55,284 nt of DNA, taken from positions 1 through 55,284 of the IMG/VR virus record IMGVR_UViG_3300037440_000124, one strand, 5' to 3'. Of this stretch, positions 8,400 through 39,103 are shown piece by piece; positions within the stretch are counted from its first letter, which is position 1; the number at the start of each line of letters is the position of its first letter. A program made the translations under genes and the position numbers. The stretch is from a virus (lineage: Duplodnaviria > Caudoviricetes). The notes beneath the pieces are model-generated. The model made no database searches and was not told the origin of the DNA. It saw nothing but the letters and a program-made list of their open reading frames with translations.

Positions 8400-9092
8400 T
8401 TAAAACAGGTGCCCGACAGGTCTGCCGGCGCGAATCTCTTCCCAGTTCCACTGAGTCCACGCCAGCAAGTGCGCCCATTCCTCGCGGTCTTCGATTCCAT
8501 ACGCCATGCAGCCCTCGTCGTGAACTTCTACCGGCCGCCCACGAATGACCGCCTCCACCGCGACCGACGAGTTCAGGACGTGAAACTTGGCGTCCGTCCA
8601 GTCCGTCTTCACCGGCAACGCAGTCGGATTCGTGCCGGCTGGATGTGGCCGAAAATGAGTCGCTTCGGTGACCGTGGCATACCATTCATCAAGCCGACTC
8701 CAATGTGGACTGTACGGCTCGGTCTGGCCGCACAGGACGATATGCTGATAGCCCATGAGTGGCGGCCAAAGCTCCCTGCCAAGCGCCTCCCAGCGGCTCT
8801 CGTCGGCCCACGGCGGAACACGGTGGTCACCCCTGCGCCCGTGTCCGTTCCACACCAACTGGACGAAATCCGGATCGCCGACGCTGGCCCGATCCACCAA
8901 CAACCAGTCACCTTCGTCGCTTTCGATAGACCGCCAGAAGGTGGTGCCGAACAGTATCGACACATCAGCGATGCGCGTCCGGCTCTCTGTGATATCGTGC
9001 TCTATGCCAAGAGCCTTTAAGCCTTGCGAGAAATCGCCTATCCGCTTCGCCTGCCAAGGGACCGCCTGGTTGTAGTGGACTGCTAGGCCCAT
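8400..9092 (-). CDS. Putative glycosyltransferase (capsule-synthesis KpsC/S-like C-terminus)
   Basis: FRPHP and NSSVAVEAVIRGRPV motifs; within the sugar-modification cluster. Confidence 0.5.
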   Translation of the reverse strand: MGLAVHYNQAVPWQAKRIGDFSQGLKALGIEHDITESRTRIADVSILFGTTFWRSIESDEGDWLLVDRASVGDPDFVQLVWNGHGRRGDHRVPPWADESRWEALGRELWPPLMGYQHIVLCGQTEPYSPHWSRLDEWYATVTEATHFRPHPAGTNPTALPVKTDWTDAKFHVLNSSVAVEAVIRGRPVEVHDEGCMAYGIEDREEWAHLLAWTQWNWEEIRAGRPVGHLF

Positions 9093-9703
9093 CCCGATAC
9101 CTGATGCGGTTTCGGGTTGCCGTGATGCACGGTAATCGGCGCAGAACCCAATCCCCTCATGCGGTGATATTTGAAGGAATCTATATACTCGTCCGGGAAA
9201 AGCCTGATCCCGTCAGGCCATAGCAACTGCGTGATTATTCCTTGATCCCCATGTGTGGTTGCAATCAAATCTTCAGCGCCAGACATATCCTTTTTGCCGC
9301 TCCAGTACATAACTGAGCTATTGATGGTCTGCTCTCTACCGTTATTCATCATAGGGCCGGCAAATCCCGGCTTACGGATCGTAGACGATTGCACAACAGG
9401 GTACGAAAAGTCGTTTCTGGCCCAGAGCTTATTCGGGTCAGTACGTCCCAGGACGACCAGAGGATCGATGTTGCCAGTGATGTTTAGATCAAGGTCGAGA
9501 TACAACACCTCACCGTCGAACATCTCAAGCAAGTGCAGCTTATTGAACCATCCGACTCTACCTTCTGGAAGTTCCTTCTCCGTGATCTCTACGAATTTGC
9601 ACGGCATCGTCAGATGTTCTGAAACCATGTGAAACATTCTGACAACGTACTTGGATCCAATCCCAAGATAGTTTTGCCAATTCAAACAGACTACATTCAG
9701 CAT
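9083..9703 (-). CDS. Glycosyltransferase (GT8-like, GT-A fold)
   Basis: GWFNKL..LYLDLD (DxD)..NSSVMYW..GDQ..HGNPKPH motifs. Confidence 0.78.
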   Translation of the reverse strand: MLNVVCLNWQNYLGIGSKYVVRMFHMVSEHLTMPCKFVEITEKELPEGRVGWFNKLHLLEMFDGEVLYLDLDLNITGNIDPLVVLGRTDPNKLWARNDFSYPVVQSSTIRKPGFAGPMMNNGREQTINSSVMYWSGKKDMSGAEDLIATTHGDQGIITQLLWPDGIRLFPDEYIDSFKYHRMRGLGSAPITVHHGNPKPHQVSGWA

Positions 9704-9709
9704 GGCTCT

Positions 9710-10297
9710 TCAGCGAAGGTTCCTGTAGATCGGCGCAATCGGCATCTGAAATGGTAAATCCTTCACTCGTTTCGCGCGGAAAAACCACATGCGCCTGGGA
9801 GCAATCCCGGACATATACAGGCGTTCGCAGTCCAGGCCGTTCAATTCTGCAAGCTCGCGATAGAACCGATCGTCGGGATAATGCAATCCGTGCCAAGTCC
9901 AATCACCTGGGGCCGGCGTAGTACTGATCAGCACACTGCCGACGTGCATTGCCTCCAGAATGTTCCTCCAGCACGGCTCCTGCGTGTCGACGTGCTCGCT
10001 GGTGCCGATATTCGACACCATGTCGAACGTTCCAAAACCCAGCGGCTTACGCAGATCCTTGACCAGAGAGCCGTGCTGACCGTTCCAGTCAACGCTGACG
10101 TGCCTGAATCCATTCTTCTCGAAGAAGCTTTTGTACGTATACGGTGCGTTGATCTTACAGCCAAGCTCCAGCATCGACTCGCCCTGCAATGGCTGGTACA
10201 GCTCCCACTCAGCCAGTCGATTGTGGAAAGGCCCTAAATCAGATTGACCAGATTGCAAGTTTGCAGCCATCTGCTCCGCCATCGTTGACGCTCTCAA
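9710..10297 (-). CDS. Class I SAM-dependent methyltransferase
   Basis: MLELGC..SVD..DL..FDMV..GTSEHV motifs; start uncertain. Confidence 0.72.
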   Translation of the reverse strand: MRASTMAEQMAANLQSGQSDLGPFHNRLAEWELYQPLQGESMLELGCKINAPYTYKSFFEKNGFRHVSVDWNGQHGSLVKDLRKPLGFGTFDMVSNIGTSEHVDTQEPCWRNILEAMHVGSVLISTTPAPGDWTWHGLHYPDDRFYRELAELNGLDCERLYMSGIAPRRMWFFRAKRVKDLPFQMPIAPIYRNLR

Positions 10298-10760
10298 TGT
10301 AATCCCAGAGGTACGCGCGGAGATCCAGACGGGTGAATTCCTTGTTGCCGTCGTACCAGTCGAACTGTGTTGCTATCAGGTACCTCGACGATTTCCTGAA
10401 TAGCGCAAGCGCCGCCTCAATGCGCGGCGCATCAAGATGATTCAGTACGTGCCTGCACAACAGACCATCTGCTAGCGGCATGGCCTCGTTGGTAATATCG
10501 AGTTTGGTCACTGTTTCTGCTCTAGGAACCAGGTCGAACGGTCGATATTCGACATCCCACTTGATCTGTCGAATCCAGTTCATATCGCCAGCACCGGCGT
10601 CGTTAAGCGTCATAATTCCGTATCGCTTCACAACAGATGGAAGCCATCGGCGAATATTATCTGTGCTTCTCAGCGTTGAACCGTTACCGCAGATTGTTTC
10701 AGGTTTCCCTCCCCTCCAGCCTTTAGCCATGCGCTTAAGCATGGCTTCGTCAGACAACAT
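10239..10760 (-). CDS. Class I SAM-dependent methyltransferase-like protein
   Basis: CGNGST..LNDAGAGDMNW..DIT..LLCRHVLNHL motifs. Confidence 0.68.
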   Translation of the reverse strand: MLSDEAMLKRMAKGWRGGKPETICGNGSTLRSTDNIRRWLPSVVKRYGIMTLNDAGAGDMNWIRQIKWDVEYRPFDLVPRAETVTKLDITNEAMPLADGLLCRHVLNHLDAPRIEAALALFRKSSRYLIATQFDWYDGNKEFTRLDLRAYLWDYIESVNDGGADGCKLAIWSI

Positions 10761-11373
10761 CGGATATGTCCATCGACGGAATCACACCTTCAAGCGCGGA
10801 ATGCGGTGTCACACAAATCAATTCGACCAATCCCTGCTCATGTATCGACCGGTACAGTTCCACCAGTCCGATGTGTACGCCATGCCGTACTTGCACGCTG
10901 GGCCAATGTGCCATTTGTGGCGGATATTCGCCGAAAAAATGACGCGGCGTTGATCCAATTTGTCTAGACCGACCGTCGTAGTCAGATGCGAATTTCAGGT
11001 CGTAGCCCAACAGGAGAATGCTTTTTGCACCTGCTCGATATGCCATCGACACCAGCGAAAAACCTGATCCAAATCCGTGGTGAATCACGTCCGGGTCAGT
11101 CGACAGCCCCTTGGCATTCCGCTCAGCAATCCAGTTAATCCCGAATTCATCAGCCGCCTGTCTGTTAGTCGTCCACTTCTCTGCCGGCAAATCCTTAACT
11201 TGCGTCCAATAATGTGACCACCAGGAATAATTACATCCATATAACAGCGCTGCATCGGGTACCAGTTGAAAAGCGTTATTACACGCGAACAACAAAAAGC
11301 CGCGACTACGCGCGGCATCGATTTGTGCAACGGTCAGTGACGGACCAGTCGCAACACAACAGATAGTGATCAT
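10750..11373 (-). CDS. MptE/MAF-like, GT29-like fold protein
   Basis: VATGPSL..CNNA..SGFSLVSMAY..GAKSILLLGYD..HFFG motifs; paralog of 13485..14168. Confidence 0.6.
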   Translation of the reverse strand: MITICCVATGPSLTVAQIDAARSRGFLLFACNNAFQLVPDAALLYGCNYSWWSHYWTQVKDLPAEKWTTNRQAADEFGINWIAERNAKGLSTDPDVIHHGFGSGFSLVSMAYRAGAKSILLLGYDLKFASDYDGRSRQIGSTPRHFFGEYPPQMAHWPSVQVRHGVHIGLVELYRSIHEQGLVELICVTPHSALEGVIPSMDISDVV

Positions 11374-11555
11374 TCGTCCGGCGGCTTGCCGAGCTTGTTT
11401 ACCATGTAAAACAATTTGATAGCGCCTCTGGGAATCGAGCGTTCACCCGATTCCCAGCGCGCCCACGTTCTCGGAGTAACCTCCACCTGCCTGGCAGCAT
11501 CAGCAAGTGACAGGTTAAGCTCATAACGTAACTTTTTGAGTTCTTCGCCTTTCAT
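11370..11555 (-). CDS. Small XRE-type HTH regulator, similar to the Aca2 N-terminal HTH
   Basis: MKGEELKKLRYELNLSLADAARQVEVTPRTWARWESGERSIP; last gene of the Cas7-like cassette. Confidence 0.8.
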   Translation of the reverse strand: MKGEELKKLRYELNLSLADAARQVEVTPRTWARWESGERSIPRGAIKLFYMVNKLGKPPDE

Positions 11556-11965
11556 ACCTGCCAGACACTACCTAACCCCAACGACCCCGACTGACCCCGC
11601 CTGAACTGACCATGACACATCTTGTCTGCCGCGCCTTAGAGCACCCGACCTAACCTCACAGCGCCTTGCCAGACCGCGCCAAACCTAACCAAATCTGCCG
11701 CAAACTTACCGGACCTAACCGCTCCTAACCATTCCATACACCACCAAGCCGTGCCGGACCGCATCTGCCCCACCAGCACACATCAGACCTCGCCCGTCCA
11801 AAGATCACCCCACCAGATCAAACCATGTCTGCCGCACCGAACCCCTACGGAACGTACCCAACATTACCATCCATACCTCGACACGTCTGCCAAGTCTTAC
11901 CGCACCTAACCGTGCCTTTCCCAGCCACGCCTTGCCGGGCCTGACCATGCCATCCCATGTCTGCC
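11556..11965 (-). ncRNA. Non-coding guide-like array: six units of alternating GGY/NN (5-nt period) bounded by GGCAGAY motifs
   Basis: Boundary motifs begin (minus strand) at 11965, 11891, 11833, 11769, 11699, 11630 and 11562; by hand count 44 of 70 spacer triplets are exactly GGY; 11-14 variable dinucleotides per unit. Confidence 0.85.
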
Positions 11966-11968
11966 TTG

Positions 11969-12436
11969 TCATGCAGCCTTGCGTTTCTTTCGCGAAGCTG
12001 AATTCCGAACTTGACGTATCGCCAGAATAACCGGCTTTGCCATTTGCAAATGAGCGTATCTAGACTCAAGGCGACTGATAAGATCAAGAAACCGACCTTC
12101 GGCTGCCGTAACCTCGTCCTCGGTTGCCTTGAATAACGGCACGTACCTGCCGCGATCTGCCGATTGGATAAAGGCGTTGACCTCGATCACTTCGTTTTGC
12201 GCGTCTACAATCTCGACGTGCAATGATTGAACCATGACACGCGCCTGCACCATTCGAAACTGGTGCGCGGCCTCCGTGTCACTCCACTCGAAGATCGCGT
12301 GAGCCGGTGATCGAATCTTTCGCGCCTCTTTGATAATCCGCTCTGCGGACATATCCGGCAGTGACTCAAGCCATTCGCCGATAGCCTGAGCGTCGCCATT
12401 GAGGTGTCTGCGCCACTTATAGATTCGATTTTTCAA
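11969..12436 (-). CDS. Accessory protein of the Cas7-like cassette (conserved phage hypothetical)
   Basis: AERIIKEAR..SPAHAIFEWSDTEAAHQFR..QAR motif; TTG start with AGGGAGG RBS overlapping the upstream stop. Confidence 0.7.
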   Translation of the reverse strand: MKNRIYKWRRHLNGDAQAIGEWLESLPDMSAERIIKEARKIRSPAHAIFEWSDTEAAHQFRMVQARVMVQSLHVEIVDAQNEVIEVNAFIQSADRGRYVPLFKATEDEVTAAEGRFLDLISRLESRYAHLQMAKPVILAIRQVRNSASRKKRKAA

Positions 12437-13074
12437 GTGGCCTTCCTCCCTTTCTTCGGATTCTTGACGCACCACATCCCAAAGTCACCACCGAATGACT
12501 TGCGACCGAACGGACGAAGTTCGTCAACACCGATCTGTGTTCCGGCTCTCGCCAACAAATTCGCAACATCATTGGCGGATACAAGGTCAGCATCGAATTC
12601 AACTGCGATTTCGCAAGCCCAGGAATCGTATCTGGGACGATTCCTCAGATCCGTTACGCCAGACTCAAGCCTTACCGGACGGGTATCATGCACAGACTTA
12701 CCATGAATCCTTACCAGTGGCGTGCCATCCGTTACATCGAAGCCATCAGGCTTGATGAAGAATGCACCCTTGGCAACTGTCATCGGCAAGCCATCGACAT
12801 TCGAACAAGCACGAATCATCGCCGCTCGAATTGACAAGGCCGGAATACCTTCCCACTTCGCCGTGCTGATGTATTTCGCACCCAGATATTCTGCTTTGTA
12901 ATCCTTCGGTGCGCGCTTCTTCTTCGTTTTGCTCTCAGCCTGCTGCGTTTCCTCCATTTGCTTTCTGGATTTCTCAGAAAACTTATGAAGCATCAGCGGG
13001 CTAACGCCTTCCAGCCTGAGCTTGACTACCTGAAAGTTAGGCGGCTGGATTTCAATACGGGTTTTCTTAATCAT
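12433..13074 (-). CDS. Stand-alone Cas7/RAMP-like RNA-binding protein
   Basis: N-terminal beta strand LRLEGVSPLMLH; GIPALSIRAAM (cf. RAMP IPgSSlKGalR); C-terminal Gly-rich loop IGVDELRP..GGDFG; ATG at 13074 with GGAG RBS. Confidence 0.75.
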   Translation of the reverse strand: MIKKTRIEIQPPNFQVVKLRLEGVSPLMLHKFSEKSRKQMEETQQAESKTKKKRAPKDYKAEYLGAKYISTAKWEGIPALSIRAAMIRACSNVDGLPMTVAKGAFFIKPDGFDVTDGTPLVRIHGKSVHDTRPVRLESGVTDLRNRPRYDSWACEIAVEFDADLVSANDVANLLARAGTQIGVDELRPFGRKSFGGDFGMWCVKNPKKGRKAT

Positions 13075-13121
13075 CGGTCGATCTCCATACGCCACGACCC
13101 TACGCCATGGCTTCAACCCTA

Positions 13122-13150
13122 ACTATGACCAATGGTCAGAGCATAGTCAA
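13122..13150 (-). promoter_or_regulatory. Sigma70-like promoter with overlapping palindromic operator
   Basis: TTGACT-17 nt-CATAGT; inverted repeat TGACCA-A-TGGTCA at 13126-13138 and ACTATG..CATAGT at 13122-13147. Confidence 0.65.
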
Positions 13151-13156
13151 TATCTT

Positions 13157-13360
13157 TCACACAAATTCAGGCGGCTTCGGATACGGCTCGCGCAACTGAT
13201 AGGCTCGTCGCACCTTCAGATGCCAGTCACGCACCGCGGCGTCAATCTCCTCACCTTTCTTGGCGCACGGCTCGCACAGACCGCCACTAAAATGCGCCTC
13301 CTGAGACTCGATGGCTTTTTTCTGAGTCCCGCAACGATCGCAAACGTAAATAATAGCCAT
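13157..13360 (-). CDS. Small hypothetical zinc-binding protein
   Basis: CDRC and CEPC pairs; AGAGGA RBS. Confidence 0.55.
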   Translation of the reverse strand: MAIIYVCDRCGTQKKAIESQEAHFSGGLCEPCAKKGEEIDAAVRDWHLKVRRAYQLREPYPKPPEFV

Positions 13361-13372
13361 TGATAATCCTCT

Positions 13373-13564
13373 TTATCGCTTTCGTGCGGTCTTTTTCTTT
13401 ACCCCTTTCAGGGACAGAACCGGGAGACCCTTGTCCGCGTATCCCTCTCTGAGTGCCTTGCGGGCCATGCTTTCGGAAATCTGCTCAGGCACCTTGTACC
13501 TGCCCTTCGACAGAAAACCGCCCTGTATTGGCCAGTCTTGTGTCAGTTTTATGGTGTAACTCAT
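13373..13564 (-). CDS. Small basic hypothetical protein
   Basis: GAGGAG RBS before the ATG at 13564; overlaps the upstream gene. Confidence 0.45.
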   Translation of the reverse strand: MSYTIKLTQDWPIQGGFLSKGRYKVPEQISESMARKALREGYADKGLPVLSLKGVKKKTARKR

Positions 13565-14168
13565 GTTGCTCCTCGAGTGCCTGTTCAAAGGTCATCTTTG
13601 GAAAGCACTGCAACGCGCTGACAGGTGTGGCATTCACGATCCTGATATGCGCCGGCAGCTTTTTCGCCGCCACGTCAAAGTGCTTTGCAAATTCAGTGTA
13701 ACGAGTACCTGATTCTAATTCCCTCGGATACTCACCGAAGAAATGCGATTTCCCGCCGGTCTTCTGCATGTCGAAGCCGATCAGGATGATGTGCTCACAG
13801 CCGAACAGGATCGCCAGGTTGATCGCCTGAAATCCCGAGTTGCTGCCGTAGTTGATAACCGATGGATCAAGTGAAAACGTGGAACCATGAGCGCCTTGCA
13901 CACAATGCACTTTCCACTTCTCGTGTGCCTCTGTCTTGTCGTTCGATGAATATCTTCGACCTTCGTGGGTGCTCCACTTCTCACCATCGAACGCTCCATC
14001 GTGATACTTCCACCATCTCGGCTCACAGCCATACAGAACGTCCGCCCATGGGATCAAGCGATAGGCATCCTGTACAACAATGATCGGATGATGACGAACC
14101 GGTACCAAAGAAGGCCCCGGCGCGGCCACGATACATGACCGCCACCGGGGAGAAACAACCTCAAGCAC
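13485..14168 (-). CDS. MptE/MAF-like, GT29-like fold protein (paralog of 10750..11373)
   Basis: VAAPGPSL..NSGFQAINLAILFGCEHIILIGFD..HFFG..NATP.SAL. Confidence 0.6.
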   Translation of the reverse strand: MLEVVSPRWRSCIVAAPGPSLVPVRHHPIIVVQDAYRLIPWADVLYGCEPRWWKYHDGAFDGEKWSTHEGRRYSSNDKTEAHEKWKVHCVQGAHGSTFSLDPSVINYGSNSGFQAINLAILFGCEHIILIGFDMQKTGGKSHFFGEYPRELESGTRYTEFAKHFDVAAKKLPAHIRIVNATPVSALQCFPKMTFEQALEEQHELHHKTDTRLANTGRFSVEGQVQGA

Positions 14169-14171
14169 CGA

Positions 14172-15443
14172 TCAAGTATCGGCGAGTTTCAGTAGCTTCA
14201 AACTGTCATTATTAAGAACAGTTCCGCCGTAGCGCCGACGCACATAGAAGCGAACGTAACCAGGATTGGTCACGGACTCGCTCTGTATCATCAGTTCCGT
14301 ACGGCTGGTCAGCAGGTAAGCCCGTGCAAAATCACCGAAGGCAATAGCAAAGCCATCGCCCGTGGTGGGATTGCTCAGGTTCTCCCAGGTGAATACCTCG
14401 TAGCCCAACAGACGGTCAGGCTGGCCGACCTGCAGACTCGGTTGCCAGAGATACTGGCCGTTCGTGTCTTTCAGCTTCCGCATGAAGCCCTGCGTCACCG
14501 TGTTCATTGCGAACTTGGCGTTGCTTCGATAACGCGGGTTCAACGCATACACCAGGTCGATGACGTTATCCGCATTGATTGCCTGCGGAGAACTGGTGAC
14601 CGCGATGTACTCGTAAGCATCAGCATCACGAAGCGGAGATGCATGGTCATCGGTTGATACAGGCGCAGTATCGGTCATACCAGTCGGCTTGTCGGAACCG
14701 TCGCCGCTGTAGATCGCCAACGCCAGAGCATTCGACATGCCCTCCGAGATGTCGTTGACCAGCCAGTCCGATACATTGAACTGGATATCCTGGATCGACC
14801 ATTCGGAAACCTGCGGGTACGCATAAAGCTCGCCCCAGGTCGGCTTACGGCTCCTCAGGTTCGGCGTTCCGGTTGCAGACCTGGTACCGGCTTCCGCCAC
14901 CCACCCCGACGTTCCGCCATGAATCGACACCAGCTCCTGATAGTCGCTCGTGCCAACGCGAATGTTCTTCACGTTGTTCACGACCTGCGACAACTTCAGA
15001 AGCAGAGCATCGACCGAGGCACCGATTTCCTTCGGCAGGGCAAAACCACCGCCAGGGTTGCTTCCGATGGTCACGTCTTTCTGTGACAGATCGCGCAACT
15101 TGCCATTGATGGTGCTGTCCTGGAACCCGACACGCAGTCCCTTGAAGAACATGTCGTTGTATTCCTTACGAGCGATCTCCTCCGGTGTTCCGCGCGGACG
15201 GTCGGCAAGCGCTTCCAGCATCTCGATGCGCGCCTGTTTCTTCGCCTCTTCGGCCTCCATGGCCTTAAGCTTCGCCTGGGACGAGTCCAGATCCTTGCTG
15301 ATCTTCGTCAGCTTCTGCTCGAGTTCCTGAGTAAGGGTCTGATTGCCCTTCTCCATGGCCTCAAGGCGTTCGTCGTTGGTCTTCTGAAACTCGGTAACCG
15401 TCTCACCGAGCTTCTGCATCTCCTCTACAATGGGATTTCCCAT
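14172..15443 (-). CDS. Major capsid protein, HK97 family
   Basis: Coiled-coil delta domain; GGFALP, GDGSDKPTG, LKDTNGQYLWQP, LLGYEV, FGDF motifs. Confidence 0.96.
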   Translation of the reverse strand: MGNPIVEEMQKLGETVTEFQKTNDERLEAMEKGNQTLTQELEQKLTKISKDLDSSQAKLKAMEAEEAKKQARIEMLEALADRPRGTPEEIARKEYNDMFFKGLRVGFQDSTINGKLRDLSQKDVTIGSNPGGGFALPKEIGASVDALLLKLSQVVNNVKNIRVGTSDYQELVSIHGGTSGWVAEAGTRSATGTPNLRSRKPTWGELYAYPQVSEWSIQDIQFNVSDWLVNDISEGMSNALALAIYSGDGSDKPTGMTDTAPVSTDDHASPLRDADAYEYIAVTSSPQAINADNVIDLVYALNPRYRSNAKFAMNTVTQGFMRKLKDTNGQYLWQPSLQVGQPDRLLGYEVFTWENLSNPTTGDGFAIAFGDFARAYLLTSRTELMIQSESVTNPGYVRFYVRRRYGGTVLNNDSLKLLKLADT

Positions 15444-23439: not shown

Positions 23440-24930
23440 TCACTGACAACCGGTTTGCACCGTTCCGGTCACTCCGCCCTGCCTGTTGACACAGGTCGGC
23501 GCTGAGATGGTGTTGTCCCGCACCGTGATGTTGCCCGTGTTGCGCAGTTCGATGCCAACGGCCAGAGCGGTGATGTTATTGCCCTCTATCAGATGACCCG
23601 ACGCGCCGGAAGACACTATCCCGCGCGTAGCATCCAGAATGACGTTGTCGAGAATCTTTGCGTCGAAGGCATCATCGTGGATGATGAACGCCTCTCCGGG
23701 GCTTGATGCGGTCGGGCGGAATCCTTCCATCTTCACTCCGGAAACCACCACGTCTCGCGAGTCCTTCACATCAATGCCGTTCTCGCGGTTGTGGTGCATG
23801 TAGCCGCCGCCGATGTAAACGTTACTCGCAGCACCACGACTGGCATCGCCAACCTGAACTGAATCACCGCTTACATCGTAGATCTCGGCGTCGAGAATCC
23901 AGACATTAGGACCGAATGTTTTTATTCCGTGATAGTCCTGTTCCTGTGCATCGATGCGACGATCACCAAAGCCGTGAATGCTGCCGCGCAGCCAGACGTT
24001 ATTACTGCCAAGCCCTACCGCAGCGTCATGACCTGCATCGAAATTCGCGTCACTGCCGAATACTTCCATGTCTCGGACGGTACAGAACTGACAGGACGTT
24101 GTTCCCTCACCAAAGCTCAATGCCGGGCCATCGGTGTTCGGATAATCGACAAAGCCGCCCTGCACAATGACGTAGCTACCGCTGATCGTGAGGCCACCAT
24201 TGCGACTAAGACCGGTTGCGTCCACGAAATACGGGTCCGACGCCGTTCCCTGACCCGAGATCGTTGCTGTGTTTCCAGTAACAACCAAATCAACTGGGTA
24301 ATTGGCATACACGTCATAGCCGAAATACGCGCTCGGATCGGGAATGCCGCGGTATGCAGAAGGCTCGCCGGGATCTGGATCGGGACCTGGTTCCGGATCG
24401 GGATCAGGACCGGGATCAGGACCTGGGTCCGGATCGGGACCTGGCTCGGGTTCCGGCTCGGGCTCTGGGCCGGGTTCCGGTTCGCCGCCGACCTCATAGA
24501 TCCAGAATCCGGCAGGCCCTTGGCGCTCGCTATGAGTGTCGGTCCAGCACGCCTGTGGCTGCCGGTCTGCGCACTCGAAATTGCCGCTACCGAATGGCTC
24601 GCAGCCATCGAAACATGCGGGATCTGGTTCAGGCTCGGGCTCCGGGTCAGGATCTGGAACAGCACCGGCTTCGCTACAAGCCCATTCGAAGACCTCGCCC
24701 CCGATGTCAGCAGAGCACGTACCTGCGAGTTCGGTAATGCGCGTGCCGTCTGCTCCGTCAGCTCCTTGAGGGCCGACCGAACCATTCAAACCCTGCGGAC
24801 CGGAAGGCCCCTGATCGCCCTGCGGACCAGGCGCACCCTCAATCTCGGCCAGTTCTTCTGGTGTAAACGTGATTTCGGCACCGAAACACAAGGCCGGCAA
24901 CAGCAAACCAACAAGAAACAGGTTCTTCAA
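23440..24930 (-). CDS. Signal-peptide protein with collagen-like segment, Pro/Glu/Asp linker and right-handed beta-helix (pectin-lyase-like) domain
   Basis: MKNLFLVGLLLPALCFG; ten Gly-X-Y triplets; PEPEP/PDPDP linkers; GDSVQVG..ENGIDVKDS..IEGNNI beta-helix repeats. Confidence 0.72.
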   Translation of the reverse strand: MKNLFLVGLLLPALCFGAEITFTPEELAEIEGAPGPQGDQGPSGPQGLNGSVGPQGADGADGTRITELAGTCSADIGGEVFEWACSEAGAVPDPDPEPEPEPDPACFDGCEPFGSGNFECADRQPQACWTDTHSERQGPAGFWIYEVGGEPEPGPEPEPEPEPGPDPDPGPDPGPDPDPEPGPDPDPGEPSAYRGIPDPSAYFGYDVYANYPVDLVVTGNTATISGQGTASDPYFVDATGLSRNGGLTISGSYVIVQGGFVDYPNTDGPALSFGEGTTSCQFCTVRDMEVFGSDANFDAGHDAAVGLGSNNVWLRGSIHGFGDRRIDAQEQDYHGIKTFGPNVWILDAEIYDVSGDSVQVGDASRGAASNVYIGGGYMHHNRENGIDVKDSRDVVVSGVKMEGFRPTASSPGEAFIIHDDAFDAKILDNVILDATRGIVSSGASGHLIEGNNITALAVGIELRNTGNITVRDNTISAPTCVNRQGGVTGTVQTGCQ

Positions 24931-37094: not shown

Positions 37095-37243
37095 GTTTAG
37101 TTAAATCGTTTTCGTCTTAAGTCAAATAAGCGGTTGAAAAAAAACGGGAACCTGTTCCCGAAATGCTATTTTCTATTGACGCGCCCTACCCTGCCGTTTC
37201 ACGCTTTGCCATCCCAGAAAACAAAAATACTCACGGGGATGAT

Positions 37244-37453
37244 TCATGCCGAATGCGACGCGCCCTGCCCGTTCAATTCCGAACTGAGATAGTCGTGAAC
37301 CTTCTGGACTTTCGTGGCCCCGGAGTCTTCGAACTTTCCCTGCGCGAATTTCGCCAGCCACCAGTAGTTGACGCCAGCGGCCTCGCTGATCTTCCGCAAC
37401 GATTGCTTGCGCGTTCTGAGCATTGCTTGAGTGCGTACGATTAGATCGGCCAT
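37244..37453 (-). CDS. Cro-like HTH protein
   Basis: SLRKISEAAGVNYWWLAKFAQG; divergent from the repressor. Confidence 0.75.
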   Translation of the reverse strand: MADLIVRTQAMLRTRKQSLRKISEAAGVNYWWLAKFAQGKFEDSGATKVQKVHDYLSSELNGQGASHSA

Positions 37454-37463
37454 GCGGTCATTC

Positions 37464-37535
37464 GAGCACAACTGTACTCAGACGTCAAGCACCACTATGC
37501 TCAGGCGCTCGCCTAGTATGAGTAGGACGGTACTT
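37464..37535. promoter_or_regulatory. Three operator-like palindromes (RAGYA-N6-TRCTY) in the cro/cI divergent region
   Basis: 37464-37479, 37487-37502 and 37520-37535; minus-strand TTGACG at 37483-37488. Confidence 0.6.
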
Positions 37536-37901
37536 ACTCATGCGGGAGAGAAGGTTTTGGTCAAGGGAACTGATACCAAGTCGGTGGTAGCACGGAATTT
37601 GCGAGCTCTGATGGACGAGAAGGAATGGAGCGAGCGTCGCCTTGCGGCCAAATCCGGCGTGGCCCAGAAGACCATCAACAAAATTCTTAACCTGGAATCG
37701 GCGCCAACGTCTGACACGATAGACAAACTGGCCGCCGCTTTCGGGCTTGCGGCGTGGCAATTGACACTACCGATCCCGCCGGAGCAAATCAGCGACTCCG
37801 GGTCATTCAGCGCCCTCCTACACCACTACATCGCCGCCTCGCCAGACAGCCGCGCCGAGATCTCGCGCGTCGCCGAGCGGGAAGCCAAGCACCGCAAGTA
37901 A
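37518..37901 (+). CDS. CI-like XRE repressor (no peptidase domain)
   Basis: VARNLRALM..WSERRLAAKSGVAQKTINKI..PTSDTIDKLAAAFG; start uncertain. Confidence 0.82.
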   Translation: MSRTVLTHAGEKVLVKGTDTKSVVARNLRALMDEKEWSERRLAAKSGVAQKTINKILNLESAPTSDTIDKLAAAFGLAAWQLTLPIPPEQISDSGSFSALLHHYIAASPDSRAEISRVAEREAKHRK

Positions 37902-37943
37902 CCGCCCTACCCGCCCCTGCCGGGGCTAAATATTTCTCCGAGT

Positions 37944-37992
37944 GAGTACTTTGGTACTTGACATTGTGCCCATGGCGAGTATTCTTGTGCTC
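37944..37992 (+). promoter_or_regulatory. Early promoter (TTGACA-16 nt-TATTCT) with two further operator palindromes
   Basis: GAGTA-CTTTGG-TACTT at 37944-37959 and GAGTA-TTCTTG-TGCTC at 37977-37992. Confidence 0.65.
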
Positions 37993-39103
37993 AGGCCAGC
38001 AGCCCAACAGGGTCAACAAATGAAACCCCAGCCCACCCCCACCCACAACCCCGTCACCTGCCCGAAGTGCGGCGCCCCGATCCCGGTTCGTAAACCTCGC
38101 GGGACGGTGTTCAAGATCCGGCGGGCTCGGGCACTGGCACGGCATAACTATGAGGCGCATCGATGAACGACAACACCCCGAAGCGGATAAGGACGCTGGC
38201 CGAACTGGATGGCCTGTCAATCAAGGATGCGGCGAGGATTCCTCACCCTGTCGATCTGGGCAAGTGGACCGGCCGTTATTGGATTGACGTAGACCTCGGT
38301 GTCTTTCGCGTCAAGGATGAATGGCGACGGGCGACGAGCGAGCATCAGTCATGACCTTCCAACATCCCCTCGCCATGATCGCCCTAAAGATCACCAGCGA
38401 CCGCAACGTCATCGACTTCACGCCGCACCTGCGCCGGAAGCGATTGGAGAATTCGCGGCTGGTACGGAAGTCGATCGATCAGATTATAGCGGAAGCGGAT
38501 GACGCGATGCTGGCATTGAGAGAACGCAATGACCGTCGGTGAATGGTTCGCCTTGCTCTGGTTGGCCATCGTTTTGCTAGTGATCGGCCCGCTGACTGCG
38601 GAGTTCATAGGCTGGTGTATCCGGCATTGGCGGACCGCGATTCGACATTTAAAGGAACAGAAATGAGCGATCAAATCGACACCGAAGAACTGAAACGAGA
38701 CGCGATGCAAAGTGCGCGCGGCCTGTCGCTGGTGTTCTGGCTGGCGGTGATCTGCTACGGGTCGATGTTTGGGATTATCGCGGCGAGGGTGTGGTGATGA
38801 ACGAAAAGACCTGTGACAAGCCAGCAACCCATCGCTTTACGTGGCCCGGAAATGACGAGAGTTTCATCTGCGAGGACCATCTGCCGAAGCTGAAGGCGGT
38901 AGCGCAGGCGCTCGGCTTGCACCTGCAGACCATTGCAGTGCCGGACGGAGACGAGCAGACATGCCGTCAGCGGGAGCCGAAATGAACGAACCAGACTTCA
39001 TCACCGGAATGATGCTCTTGATCGGCTATCTAGGGCTCGTCTGTGGGGCGCTAGGGCTAGGTGGATTAGTGCTCAAGTTCTTCCTAGGGCGGGACGTTTA
39101 ATT

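What the first reader, a model, noticed from the sequence alone, without database searches (positions are those of the whole stretch)
11631..11833. Units 3, 4 and 5 spell conserved HK97-family capsid motifs
U5 LYFALKAEYRANA vs own capsid LVYALNPRYRSNA (14517-14555; 6/13 NN identical). U4 APTFGMIYAYPKA vs KPTWGELYAYPQV (14808-14846; 7/13 NN, 18/26 nt). U3 IFLGDFRELVLG vs IAFGDFARAYLL (14310-14345; 5/12 NN), which fits the general capsid xxxGDFxxxxxG motif. Many of the differences are conservative at the protein level, as expected if the targets are capsid genes of other phages.
Basis: partly seen in the sequence, partly recalled or inferred. Interest (0 to 1): 0.86.

Follow-up and report, generated by a model that had tools for sequence, protein, structure and literature searches.

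The report
Phage VIPR guide RNAs aimed at capsid genes
The odd five-base-periodic stretch is the guide-RNA array of a phage VIPR system (a CRISPR-like DNA silencer first described in 2026), and three of its guides do spell conserved capsid-protein motifs that match capsid genes of other phages but not the phage's own.

Summary
Window 11556-11968 (- strand) is a non-coding array of GGYNN pentamers, cut by a 4-nt GGCA into six units. A Cas7-like Vipr gene (12433-13074) lies upstream. This fits the VIPR systems of 2026 preprints, in which the NN of each pentamer pairs with target DNA while skipping every third base. This scan has found VIPR arrays before on other DNA.

- U4 matches 13/13 NN in five capsid genes: three viral contigs and two alphaproteobacterial MAG prophages. 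It reaches >=11/13 in 54 of 110 capsid loci.
- U5's 10-NN core hit 23 viral loci, all in capsid genes. The best match is 11/13.
- U3 is weaker. Its best matches (11/12 twice, 10/12 once) lie at the GDF motif of more distant PF05065 capsid genes, but the NN count alone is near chance.

The phage's own capsid matches only 42-54%, below the published 80% threshold. No single locus is hit by two units, so the guides point at several capsid lineages. This is a new member of a known kind, with a target class that the four papers' main texts do not name.

The parts
12433..13074 (-). vipr: 213-aa Cas7/RAMP-like guide-binding protein
   Evidence: The top PDB sequence hit is 36pp_D 'SUSP1 Vipr protein', E 0.017 for the single sequence. 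With a 40-sequence profile the E-value is 5.3e-6, and the next hit is at E 0.16. The AF2 model built on the alignment has pLDDT 85.1. Its best Foldseek PDB matches are Csm3/Cas7 subunits of type III and type VII CRISPR complexes, E 4e-5 to 1e-3.
11969..12475 (-). 168-aa accessory gene (vap-like candidate), function unknown
   Evidence: A homologue follows vipr in 13 of 14 related loci; the 14th locus is cut off. It matches phrog_15946, of unknown function. It has no PDB sequence hit. Its Atlas neighbours are viral hypothetical proteins.
11556..11968 (-). vrRNA array: six units of GGYNN pentamers separated by a 4-nt GGCA (staggered-type array)
   Evidence: Supported. In U1, U3, U4 and U5, 39 of 52 pentamers start with GG and 34 of 52 are GGY. 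Rfam gives no match. The same layout, vipr then an ~0.5-kb gene then a GG-period-5 array, is seen in 12 of 14 related loci by the scan: ten with a long array and two (L247, L259) with short tracts only; the other two loci end at or soon after vipr.
11892..11961 (-). U1, 14 pentamers; target unresolved
   Evidence: The best match in the 1-Mb locus set is 8/14, no better than shuffled order. It matches 6-7/14, in frame and about 51-56 codons upstream of the U3 site, in the three distant capsid genes. This is a lead only.
11834..11887 (-). U2, degenerate unit with one 4-nt step; matches the ..I.NCTPGSA motif of MptE-like genes
   Evidence: Eight NN match 8/8 in 5 loci. Of 15 hits with >=6/8, 14 lie in MptE-like ORFs. 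The phage's own two MptE-like genes match 4/7 at the homologous sites.
11770..11829 (-). U3, 12 pentamers, NN spell IFLGDFRELVLG
   Evidence: It matches 11/12 in L318 and L297 and 10/12 in L263, all PF05065 capsid ORFs, at the GDF site. Only 7 of its 12 pentamers keep GG. The own capsid matches 5/12.
11700..11765 (-). U4, 13 pentamers (one 1-nt bulge), NN spell APTFGMIYAYPKA
   Evidence: It matches 13/13 in the capsid genes of L124, L138, L194, L244 and L245. The own capsid matches 7/13.
11631..11695 (-). U5, 13 pentamers, NN spell LYFALKAEYRANA
   Evidence: It matches 11/13 in the L229 capsid and 10/13 in 22 further capsid loci. The own capsid matches 6/13.
11563..11626 (-). U6; its first 9 pentamers resemble the VIHHGHG motif of MptE-like gene 2
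   Evidence: It matches 7/9 in the MptE-like 2 gene of L001, the only hit with >=7/9 in the set searched. It matches 6/9 at the phage's own homologous site, 11066-11091. It is short, so the evidence is weak.
11370..11555 (-). 61-aa HTH protein directly after the array
   Evidence: Pfam HTH_31 at E 6.5e-9; Aca2_YdiL at 1.5e-4, below that family's cut-off. A homologue lies beside the array in 9 of 14 related loci.
14172..15443 (-). The phage's own major capsid gene (PF05065). The sites homologous to the guides are 14808-14846 (U4), 14517-14555 (U5) and 14310-14345 (U3)
   Evidence: Pfam Phage_capsid, E 1.4e-55. NN identity at the three sites is 54%, 46% and 42%. No position in the window reaches 80% for any unit.

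Best explanation
The region is the guide-RNA (vrRNA) array of a phage-borne VIPR system. The cassette, all on the - strand, reads vipr (12433-13074), a 168-aa accessory gene, the array (11556-11968) and a small HTH gene. It sits in the head-gene module.

Inferred steps, by analogy with the SUSP1 and P. fulva systems:
- The array is transcribed with its neighbours and cut at or near the GGCA marks into units of 12-14 pentamers.
- Vipr protomers polymerise on each unit, holding the GGY bases and presenting the NN dinucleotides.
- The NN pair with double-stranded DNA while skipping every third target base.
- Binding blocks transcription of the target.

Because the skipped base falls on the codon wobble position, a guide in effect reads a protein motif. 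U4, U5 and probably U3 read three conserved motifs of HK97-type (PF05065) major capsid proteins. They are therefore aimed at the capsid genes of competing phages or prophages, so that a rival in the same cell cannot build heads. The phage's own capsid differs at about half of the NN positions and so escapes.

What is shown here: the array anatomy, the Vipr homology and fold, the matches to foreign capsid genes, and the lack of self-matches. What is inferred: transcription, processing, binding and silencing.
For: Anatomy
- Period-5 GG signal.
- Units of 12-14 pentamers, against the published range of 9-16.
- GGCA punctuation shifts the register by one base, as in the 'staggered arrays' of that paper's fig. 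S18 legend.

Protein
- The only significant PDB sequence hit is the SUSP1 Vipr protein, E 5.3e-6.
- The fold is Cas7/Csm3-like.
- 238 homologues at E<=0.001 among 397 candidates.
- Synteny is conserved in related loci.
- The cassette is missing from the related contig L001, where a head-closure gene abuts MptE-like gene 2.

Targets under the published 1-nt-skip rule and 80% threshold
- U4 matches 13/13 in 5 of 5 capsid genes. Two of these came from a scan of genome contigs with 26 specified bases. By my arithmetic, about 3e-4 chance hits are expected in the 596 Gb stated by the tool.
- U4 reaches >=11/13 in 54 of 110 capsid loci.
- U5's core lies in capsid homologues in 23 of 23 matches, with a best of 11/13.
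- U3 matches 11/12 in two PF05065 capsids.
- Every capsid match is on the coding strand, with NN on codon positions 1-2.
- U5 was not used to select the U4-pattern loci, yet it reaches 9-10/13 at the homologous site in some of them.

Self-targeting: no position in the window reaches 80%; the maximum is 67%, for the 9-NN U6.

Target context: the L245 target sits in a complete head module of TerS, TerL, portal, protease, capsid and connectors.
Against: - There is no expression or processing data. No RNA run holds the locus.
- No single fetched locus is matched at >=80% by two units, so a concrete competitor phage is not identified.
- U5 has only one hit at >=80%, and its full 13-NN pattern found nothing in the metagenome collection.
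- U3's NN score is close to chance. Among 78 loci forced to match 9 NN, about 0.9 would reach 11/12 by chance (my arithmetic), and 2 did. Six ZipA genes also carry the core, three of them at 10/12.
- U3 keeps GG in only 7 of 12 pentamers.
- The shuffled-order control used a locus set that had itself been selected with U4/U5 patterns, so it is not independent.
- In related arrays only 1 of 45 decoded blocks reached 80% in my capsid-locus set, the same as shuffled blocks (1 of 45). Capsid targeting is therefore not shown to be general in this clade.
- Hosts of this phage and of most targets are unknown.
Confidence: 0.85

Rival explanations
1. The capsid resemblance is coincidence. Many decodings and genes could have been tried, and short degenerate NN strings will resemble something.
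For: Within the window, U3's capsid site is one of 59 equally good or better positions and U5's is one of 11. Shuffled-order strings reach 7-8 matches somewhere in 1 Mb.
Against: U4 matches 13/13 in five capsid genes, against about 3e-4 chance hits expected in the genome scan. U5's core lies in capsid genes in 23 of 23 matches. All matches are in frame on the coding strand. The decoding rule was published independently.
Confidence: 0.03
2. The guides act on the phage's own genes. Partial matches to its capsid and MptE-like genes would tune late-gene expression rather than attack rivals.
For: Each of U2-U6 has its homologous, partly matching site in the phage's own head module: 42-67% NN. The cassette sits inside that module.
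Against: The published systems showed no self-hits at >=80%, and perturbing NN pairing abolished silencing. Foreign genes match far better, at 85-100%, than the phage's own. Partial self-similarity is expected simply because the targets are homologues.
Confidence: 0.05
3. For U3 only: it is a decayed or differently aimed guide, for example against a bacterial zipA-like gene, and its GDF resemblance to capsids is incidental.
For: Six of 76 ORFs with its 9-NN core are ZipA_C proteins, three of them at 10/12 = 83%. Only 7 of its 12 pentamers keep GG. It reaches at most 6/12 in 110 capsid loci related to the phage's own capsid.
Against: The only two 11/12 matches, plus one 10/12 match, are PF05065 capsids. 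Their site lies 54 residues from the end of the Pfam domain, against 53 residues in the phage's own capsid. The neighbouring units U4 and U5 are capsid guides. A score of 10/12 is what chance gives among 78 forced hits: about 15 are expected by my arithmetic and 13 were seen.
Confidence: 0.25
4. The targets are not infecting phages but capsid-encoding satellites (capsid-forming PICI-like elements) or domesticated prophage remnants in the host chromosome.
For: The published SUSP1 VIPR targets a satellite. The two named U4 targets lie in bacterial MAG contigs, one of 946 kb. Only the head module of L245 was examined.
Against: Three further 13/13 targets and most of the other matches are on contigs filed as viral. 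L245 carries both terminase subunits, a portal, a protease and connectors, as a full prophage would. That satellites can carry the same genes is my recollection, not a call.
Confidence: 0.15

Closest known systems
VIPR systems (Vipr protein + vrRNA), type II of Escherichia phage SUSP1 and the P. fulva prophage. Sources: bioRxiv 10.64898/2026.04.26.720920 (Results, Discussion and three Methods sections read); 10.64898/2026.04.26.720927 (passages read)
   Same: A small Cas7-like protein sits next to non-coding GGY/NN pentamer repeats of 9-16 units. The NN match coding sequences under the 1-nt-skip rule, with the skip on the wobble base. Targets are other mobile elements. There is no self-match at >=80%.
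   Different: No 3' tail or pseudoknot separates the units. Units abut through a 4-nt GGCA. The Vipr is only distantly related to SUSP1 Vipr, with sequence similarity confined to about 50 C-terminal residues. The accessory genes are a 168-aa protein of unknown function and an HTH. The targets found here are major capsid and MptE-like structural-module genes rather than a satellite recombinase or prophage regulators.
Staggered vrRNA arrays (fig. S18 legend of 10.64898/2026.04.26.720920; legend read, figure not held)
   Same: [quoted passage not shown] Here a 4-nt GGCA shifts the register by one base between units.
   Different: Which VIPR type these arrays belong to, and where they are cut, could not be checked because figures and supplements are not available.
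Class 1 CRISPR Cas7 backbone filaments (type III Csm3/Cmr4, type VII)
   Same: The predicted fold of the 213-aa protein matches them best in the PDB library. The guide is held by a repeating RAMP filament with periodic unpaired bases.
   Different: There is no CRISPR repeat-spacer array, no other cas genes and no adaptation module in the window. The period is 5 nt with 2 pairing bases rather than 6 nt with 5.
Phage-encoded CRISPR arrays and mini-arrays aimed at rival elements, e.g. Vibrio phage ICP1 against PLE and archaeal virus mini-arrays (recalled, not checked here)
   Same: A virus carries programmable guides against a competitor.
   Different: A different effector family and a different pairing code. 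Contiguous spacers are defeated by synonymous changes, whereas NN-only reading is not.

Membership tests
VIPR system | Vipr protein: a small RAMP/Cas7-like protein related to described Viprs | tested here: met
   The profile of 40 homologues hits PDB 36pp 'SUSP1 Vipr protein' at E 5.3e-6, and the next hit is at E 0.16. The AF2 model has pLDDT 85.1. Foldseek's best matches are Csm3/Cas7 chains at E 4e-5. No Vipr chain appears among the Foldseek rows shown, although 36pp is in the sequence copy of the PDB.
VIPR system | vrRNA: tandem GGY/NN pentamers, 9-16 per guide, adjacent to vipr | tested here: met
   Units have 12-14 pentamers. In U1, U3, U4 and U5, 39 of 52 pentamers start with GG and 34 of 52 are GGY. 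The array starts 465 nt downstream of the vipr stop, on the same strand. U2 and U6 have register slips.
VIPR system | Natural targets at >=80% NN identity under the 1-nt-skip rule, with skips on wobble positions | tested here: met
   U4 100%, U5 85% and U3 92%, all in coding frames with NN on codon positions 1-2. The evidence for U3 is statistically weak.
VIPR system | No self-targeting at >=80% | tested here: met
   The maximum anywhere in the 55,284-bp genome, on both strands, is 43-67% per unit.
VIPR system | vap accessory gene (vap1-6) | tested here: inconclusive
   A conserved 168-aa gene follows vipr in 13 of 14 related loci, and an HTH gene lies beside the array in 9 of 14. Identity with any named vap could not be tested, because their sequences are in supplements that are closed.
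VIPR system | vrRNAs are expressed, processed and co-purify with Vipr; DNA binding silences transcription | not testable with these tools
   No RNA run is listed for the locus. These points need bench work.
VIPR type II (SUSP1-like) | Each vrRNA ends in a conserved structured 3' tail or pseudoknot | tested here: not met
   Units are separated only by GGCA. No conserved tail or inverted repeat was found in 11500-12050. The array therefore fits the staggered form and is not a type II member.
CRISPR-Cas | Repeat-spacer array with direct repeats of about 24-40 nt, plus cas genes | tested here: not met
   There are no such repeats and no Rfam CRISPR direct-repeat family.

The most novel reading that the evidence does not exclude
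The guides are not copies of one rival's sequence. They are motif-level, broad-spectrum guides. Because only codon positions 1-2 are read, each guide recognises a conserved capsid-protein motif across phage lineages that share only about 30-37% capsid identity or less. One array therefore covers several HK97 capsid lineages plus the neighbouring MptE-like genes. On this reading, the carrier's own capsid is kept immune by amino-acid substitutions at exactly these motif positions, so VIPR pressure would shape capsid motif evolution in both attacker and prey.
Probability: 0.35. Interest if true: 0.7.

Novelty: new member of a known kind. Interest (0 to 1): 0.5.

Why it matters
The work assigns a natural target class, major capsid genes at their most conserved motifs, to a VIPR array from an uncultured sediment phage. 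The main texts of the four papers that mention vrRNAs do not name capsid genes as VIPR targets:
- 'capsid' occurs 0 times in three of them.
- In the fourth it appears only in other senses.
Supplementary target tables could not be seen.

If the guides work as inferred, a phage can shut off head production of distantly related rivals with guides that synonymous mutation cannot evade. The locus also gives ready-made matched and mismatched natural site pairs (13/13 foreign against 7/13 own) for testing the mismatch tolerance of VIPR.

Tried and rejected
Readings considered before the VIPR lead and dropped
- Protein coding. A period of 5 is not compatible with a reading frame, and the six frames carry stops.
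- A binding platform for a TRAP-like ring protein, a Rho rut site on the + strand, G-quadruplex beads, and decoys for Chi or BREX sites. None explains the conserved GGY with variable NN, the adjacent Cas7-like gene, or the capsid matches.

Searches that found nothing or were uninformative
- Rfam gave no match.
- blastn of 11300-12500 against phage records gave no match.
- A search for related loci with the 168-aa protein gave no relatives.
- Single-sequence AF2 of Vipr was unusable, with pLDDT 39.
- A local HMM built from capsids related to the phage's own found none of the 76 ORFs carrying the U3 core. Pfam was needed instead.
- Two U3 patterns in viral contigs gave one non-capsid hit each.
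- The full 13-NN U5 pattern in metagenome contigs gave 0 hits.

Host assignment
- The closest capsids among isolated phages are only about 34% identical, with mixed hosts.
- Vipr is absent from the two MAGs that carry U4 targets.
- Vipr was found in 1 of 401 sampled genomes of their class, and that match is distant, E 2e-9.

Generalisation to related arrays
- 1 of 45 decoded blocks reached >=80% in my capsid-locus set, and 1 of 45 shuffled blocks did the same. This shows nothing either way.

Other
- The promoter and terminator scan was at chance level.
- No RNA holder was listed for the locus, and read laying was not used.
- Other window stretches flagged for CC period 5 (37165-38131) are ordinary coding or regulatory sequence.

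Full report
**What is at the coordinates**

The window is a complete 55,284-bp virus record. Nearly all head genes lie on the - strand.

Between the stop of a 168-aa ORF (11969-12475) and the start codon of a 61-aa HTH gene (11370-11555) lie 413 nt with no credible ORF. The + strand there is strongly C-rich, with GC skew of -0.41 to -0.56.

Read on the - strand, the stretch is a chain of GGNNN pentamers:
- There are 79 GG starts.
- Autocorrelation at lags 5, 10, 15, 20, 25 and 30 is 36, 39, 35, 32, 31 and 24, against 4-19 at all other lags (4-9 away from lags one base short of a multiple of 5).
- The pattern (GGNNN)9GG occurs 3 times in the window and 0 times in 100 shuffles.
- No other part of the genome has such a tract.
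- A 4-nt GGCA, followed here by GA(C/T), recurs every 58-74 nt and divides the tract into six units.
- Rfam has no match.

**Checking the observation**

They appear when each pentamer is read as GGx+NN and the NN is taken as codon positions 1-2. I reproduced all three strings:
- U3 (11829->11770) gives IFLGDFRELVLG.
- U4 (11765->11700, with one extra base before the last pentamer) gives APTFGMIYAYPKA.
- U5 (11695->11631) gives LYFALKAEYRANA.

The peptides of the phage's own capsid are at the stated coordinates in the 423-aa PF05065 protein encoded at 14172-15443. The counts are exact: 6/13, 7/13 with 18/26 nt, and 5/12.

**What the element is**

Many carry 300-1000-nt arrays of the same GGYNN type, often with GGCA punctuation.

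The scan's earlier notes pointed to VIPR systems, and I checked this in the papers. The first paper is bioRxiv 10.64898/2026.04.26.720920; I read its Results, Discussion and three Methods sections. It describes:
- a ~20-kDa Cas7-like Vipr protein;
- vrRNAs of 9-16 GGY/NN repeats;
- pairing of the NN with DNA while skipping one target base, which mostly falls on the wobble position;
- natural targets called at >=80% NN identity;
- no self-hits at that level;
- 'staggered arrays' in which one vrRNA ends where the next begins.

The structural paper, 10.64898/2026.04.26.720927 (passages read), shows filaments of 11-12 protomers and a gapped R-loop.

The protein was tested here. The ORF at 12433-13074 (213 aa) has the SUSP1 Vipr protein (PDB 36pp) as its best PDB sequence hit:
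- E 0.017 with the single sequence;
- E 5.3e-6 with a profile of 40 of its 238 homologues, the next hit being at E 0.16.

Its AF2 model built on that alignment has pLDDT 85.1. Its best structural matches are Csm3/Cas7 subunits.

Fourteen related viral loci show the same order: MptE-like gene, vipr, a homologue of the 168-aa gene, a GG-period-5 array and, in nine of them, the HTH gene.

A related contig without the cassette (L001) runs from its head-closure gene straight into MptE-like gene 2. The cassette is therefore an insertion in the head module.

The array lacks the 3' tails of type II systems, so I file it with the staggered form.

**Testing the interpretation inside the window**

- U4's capsid site (7/13) is the single best of about 110,490 positions.
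- U5's site is among 11 positions with >=6/13.
- U3's site is among 59 positions with >=5/12.

Taken alone, only U4 stands out.

**Testing it outside the window**

U4
- Its 8-NN core gave 99 viral loci.
- Its full 13-NN pattern gave 2 loci in 596 Gb of genome contigs, a Stappiaceae MAG and a Neomegalonema MAG. About 3e-4 hits are expected by chance (my arithmetic).
- Over these 101 loci, 88 core matches lie inside a homologue of the phage's own capsid and 13 do not. All 88 are on the coding strand.
- Five loci match 13/13, all in capsid genes that are 34-37% identical to the phage's own.
- Among 110 capsid loci, U4 scores 13, 12 and 11 in 5, 16 and 33 loci.

U5
- Its 10-NN core gave 23 viral loci, all 23 in capsid homologues.
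- The best overall is 11/13 (85%), in L229.
- In loci selected only by the U4 pattern, U5 still reaches 9-10/13 at the homologous site 291-321 nt downstream.

U3
- Two patterns of 18 specified bases each gave one viral hit, neither in a capsid gene. This also calibrates what chance gives in that collection.
- In the metagenome collection one of them gave 78 loci. The match lies in an ORF of >=30 aa in 74 of these; together with the two viral U3-pattern loci this makes the 76 ORFs scanned. Three are PF05065 capsids, six are ZipA, and the rest are unrelated families.
- The three capsids score 11/12, 11/12 and 10/12.
- Their site lies 54 residues before the end of the Pfam domain, against 53 residues in the phage's own capsid.
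- By NN count alone, about 0.9 hits at 11/12 are expected among 78 forced hits (my arithmetic). The support for U3 therefore rests on where the best hits lie, not on their number.

**One phage or several?**

No fetched locus has two of the three units at >=80%. The closest case is L188, with U4 at 11/13 and U5 at 10/13.

The best targets belong to different lineages:
- The U4 lineage is 34-37% identical to the phage's own capsid.
- The best U5 target is about 32% identical.
- The U3 lineage is not detected by blastp against the phage's own capsid at E<=1e-3.

The guides therefore address several capsid lineages, or else the true rival is not in the collections.

The L245 target lies in a complete head module. 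Capsids of the VIPR-carrying relatives match U4 at only 6-7/13.

**Self-immunity**

No position in the whole genome reaches 80% for any unit. The maxima are 43-67%.

**Other units**

- U2 matches 8/8 NN at the ..I.NCTPGSA motif of MptE-like genes in 5 loci. Of 15 hits with >=6/8, 14 are in such genes.
- U6 matches 7/9 at the VIHHGHG motif of MptE-like gene 2 in L001.
- U1 is unresolved.

At least four of the six units, and perhaps five, therefore read conserved motifs of the head-module genes of related phages.

**Limits**

- There are no expression data.
- The host is unknown.
- In related arrays only 1 of 45 decoded blocks hit my capsid set at >=80%, the same as shuffled blocks.
- Figures and supplements of the papers, including target tables and type assignments, could not be seen and may already list this clade or capsid targets.

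**Novelty and verdict**

The element is a further example of a known kind. VIPR has been in print since April 2026, and this scan has found it on other DNA.

What is new here is the decoded target set. The word 'capsid' is absent from the main texts of three of the four papers that mention vrRNAs, and in the fourth it is used only in other senses.

Its interpretation holds firmly for U4 and U5 and provisionally for U3.

Noticed in passing
window 11834-11887 (U2) and 11563-11626 (U6); own genes 13485-14168 and 10750-11373: Two further units of the array read motifs of the MptE-like (PHROG 'alpha-2,3-sialyltransferase') genes that flank the capsid module. U2 matches 8/8 NN at ..I.NCTPGSA in 5 loci. 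U6 matches 7/9 at VIHHGHG in L001. The phage's own copies match only 4/7 and 6/9.
   Followed up: partly
window 11892-11961 (U1); L318, L297, L263: U1's best match in the three distant PF05065 capsid genes (6-7/14, peptide AIMSP..W....L) lies in frame, 51-56 codons upstream of the U3 site. It may be a fourth capsid guide, but the score is no better than shuffled strings give.
   Followed up: partly
window 8400-14168: The capsid gene is followed by two MptE-like genes, a methyltransferase-like gene (10239-10760) and a glycosyltransferase-like gene (9083-9703). This is an unusual sugar- or modification-type gene set inside a head module. It is conserved in relatives (L001, L002, L249, L251, L252).
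   Followed up: no
Some have arrays of 0.8-1.6 kb with more than 100 pentamers and GGCA punctuation. Their neighbouring genes were not examined.
   Followed up: no
L251 3570-3800: One unit of a related VIPR array reads YIRRRVGGMV. It matches 9/10 NN at the conserved C-terminal YV.RR.GG motif of a capsid gene (L197). The other 44 decoded blocks from related arrays had no hit at >=80% in my locus set.
   Followed up: partly
L271, L312, L319 (and L276, L280, L316): U3's 9-NN core also occurs in six ZipA_C genes of metagenome contigs, three of them at 10/12 NN (peptide AKLGDFRDLVLG). This is probably chance at this database size, but it formally passes the 80% threshold.
   Followed up: partly
window 24371-24484: A tandem repeat with 12/18-nt units (GGATCGGGATCC-like, 9.5 copies) lies inside the 496-aa ORF 23440-24930. 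It is the only other GG-period signal in the genome and is not a pentamer array.
   Followed up: no
window 11771-11778 (- strand, end of U3): The last pentamers of U3 contain GCTGGTGG, which I recall as the E. coli Chi octamer. It is probably a by-product of the GGYNN composition.
   Followed up: no
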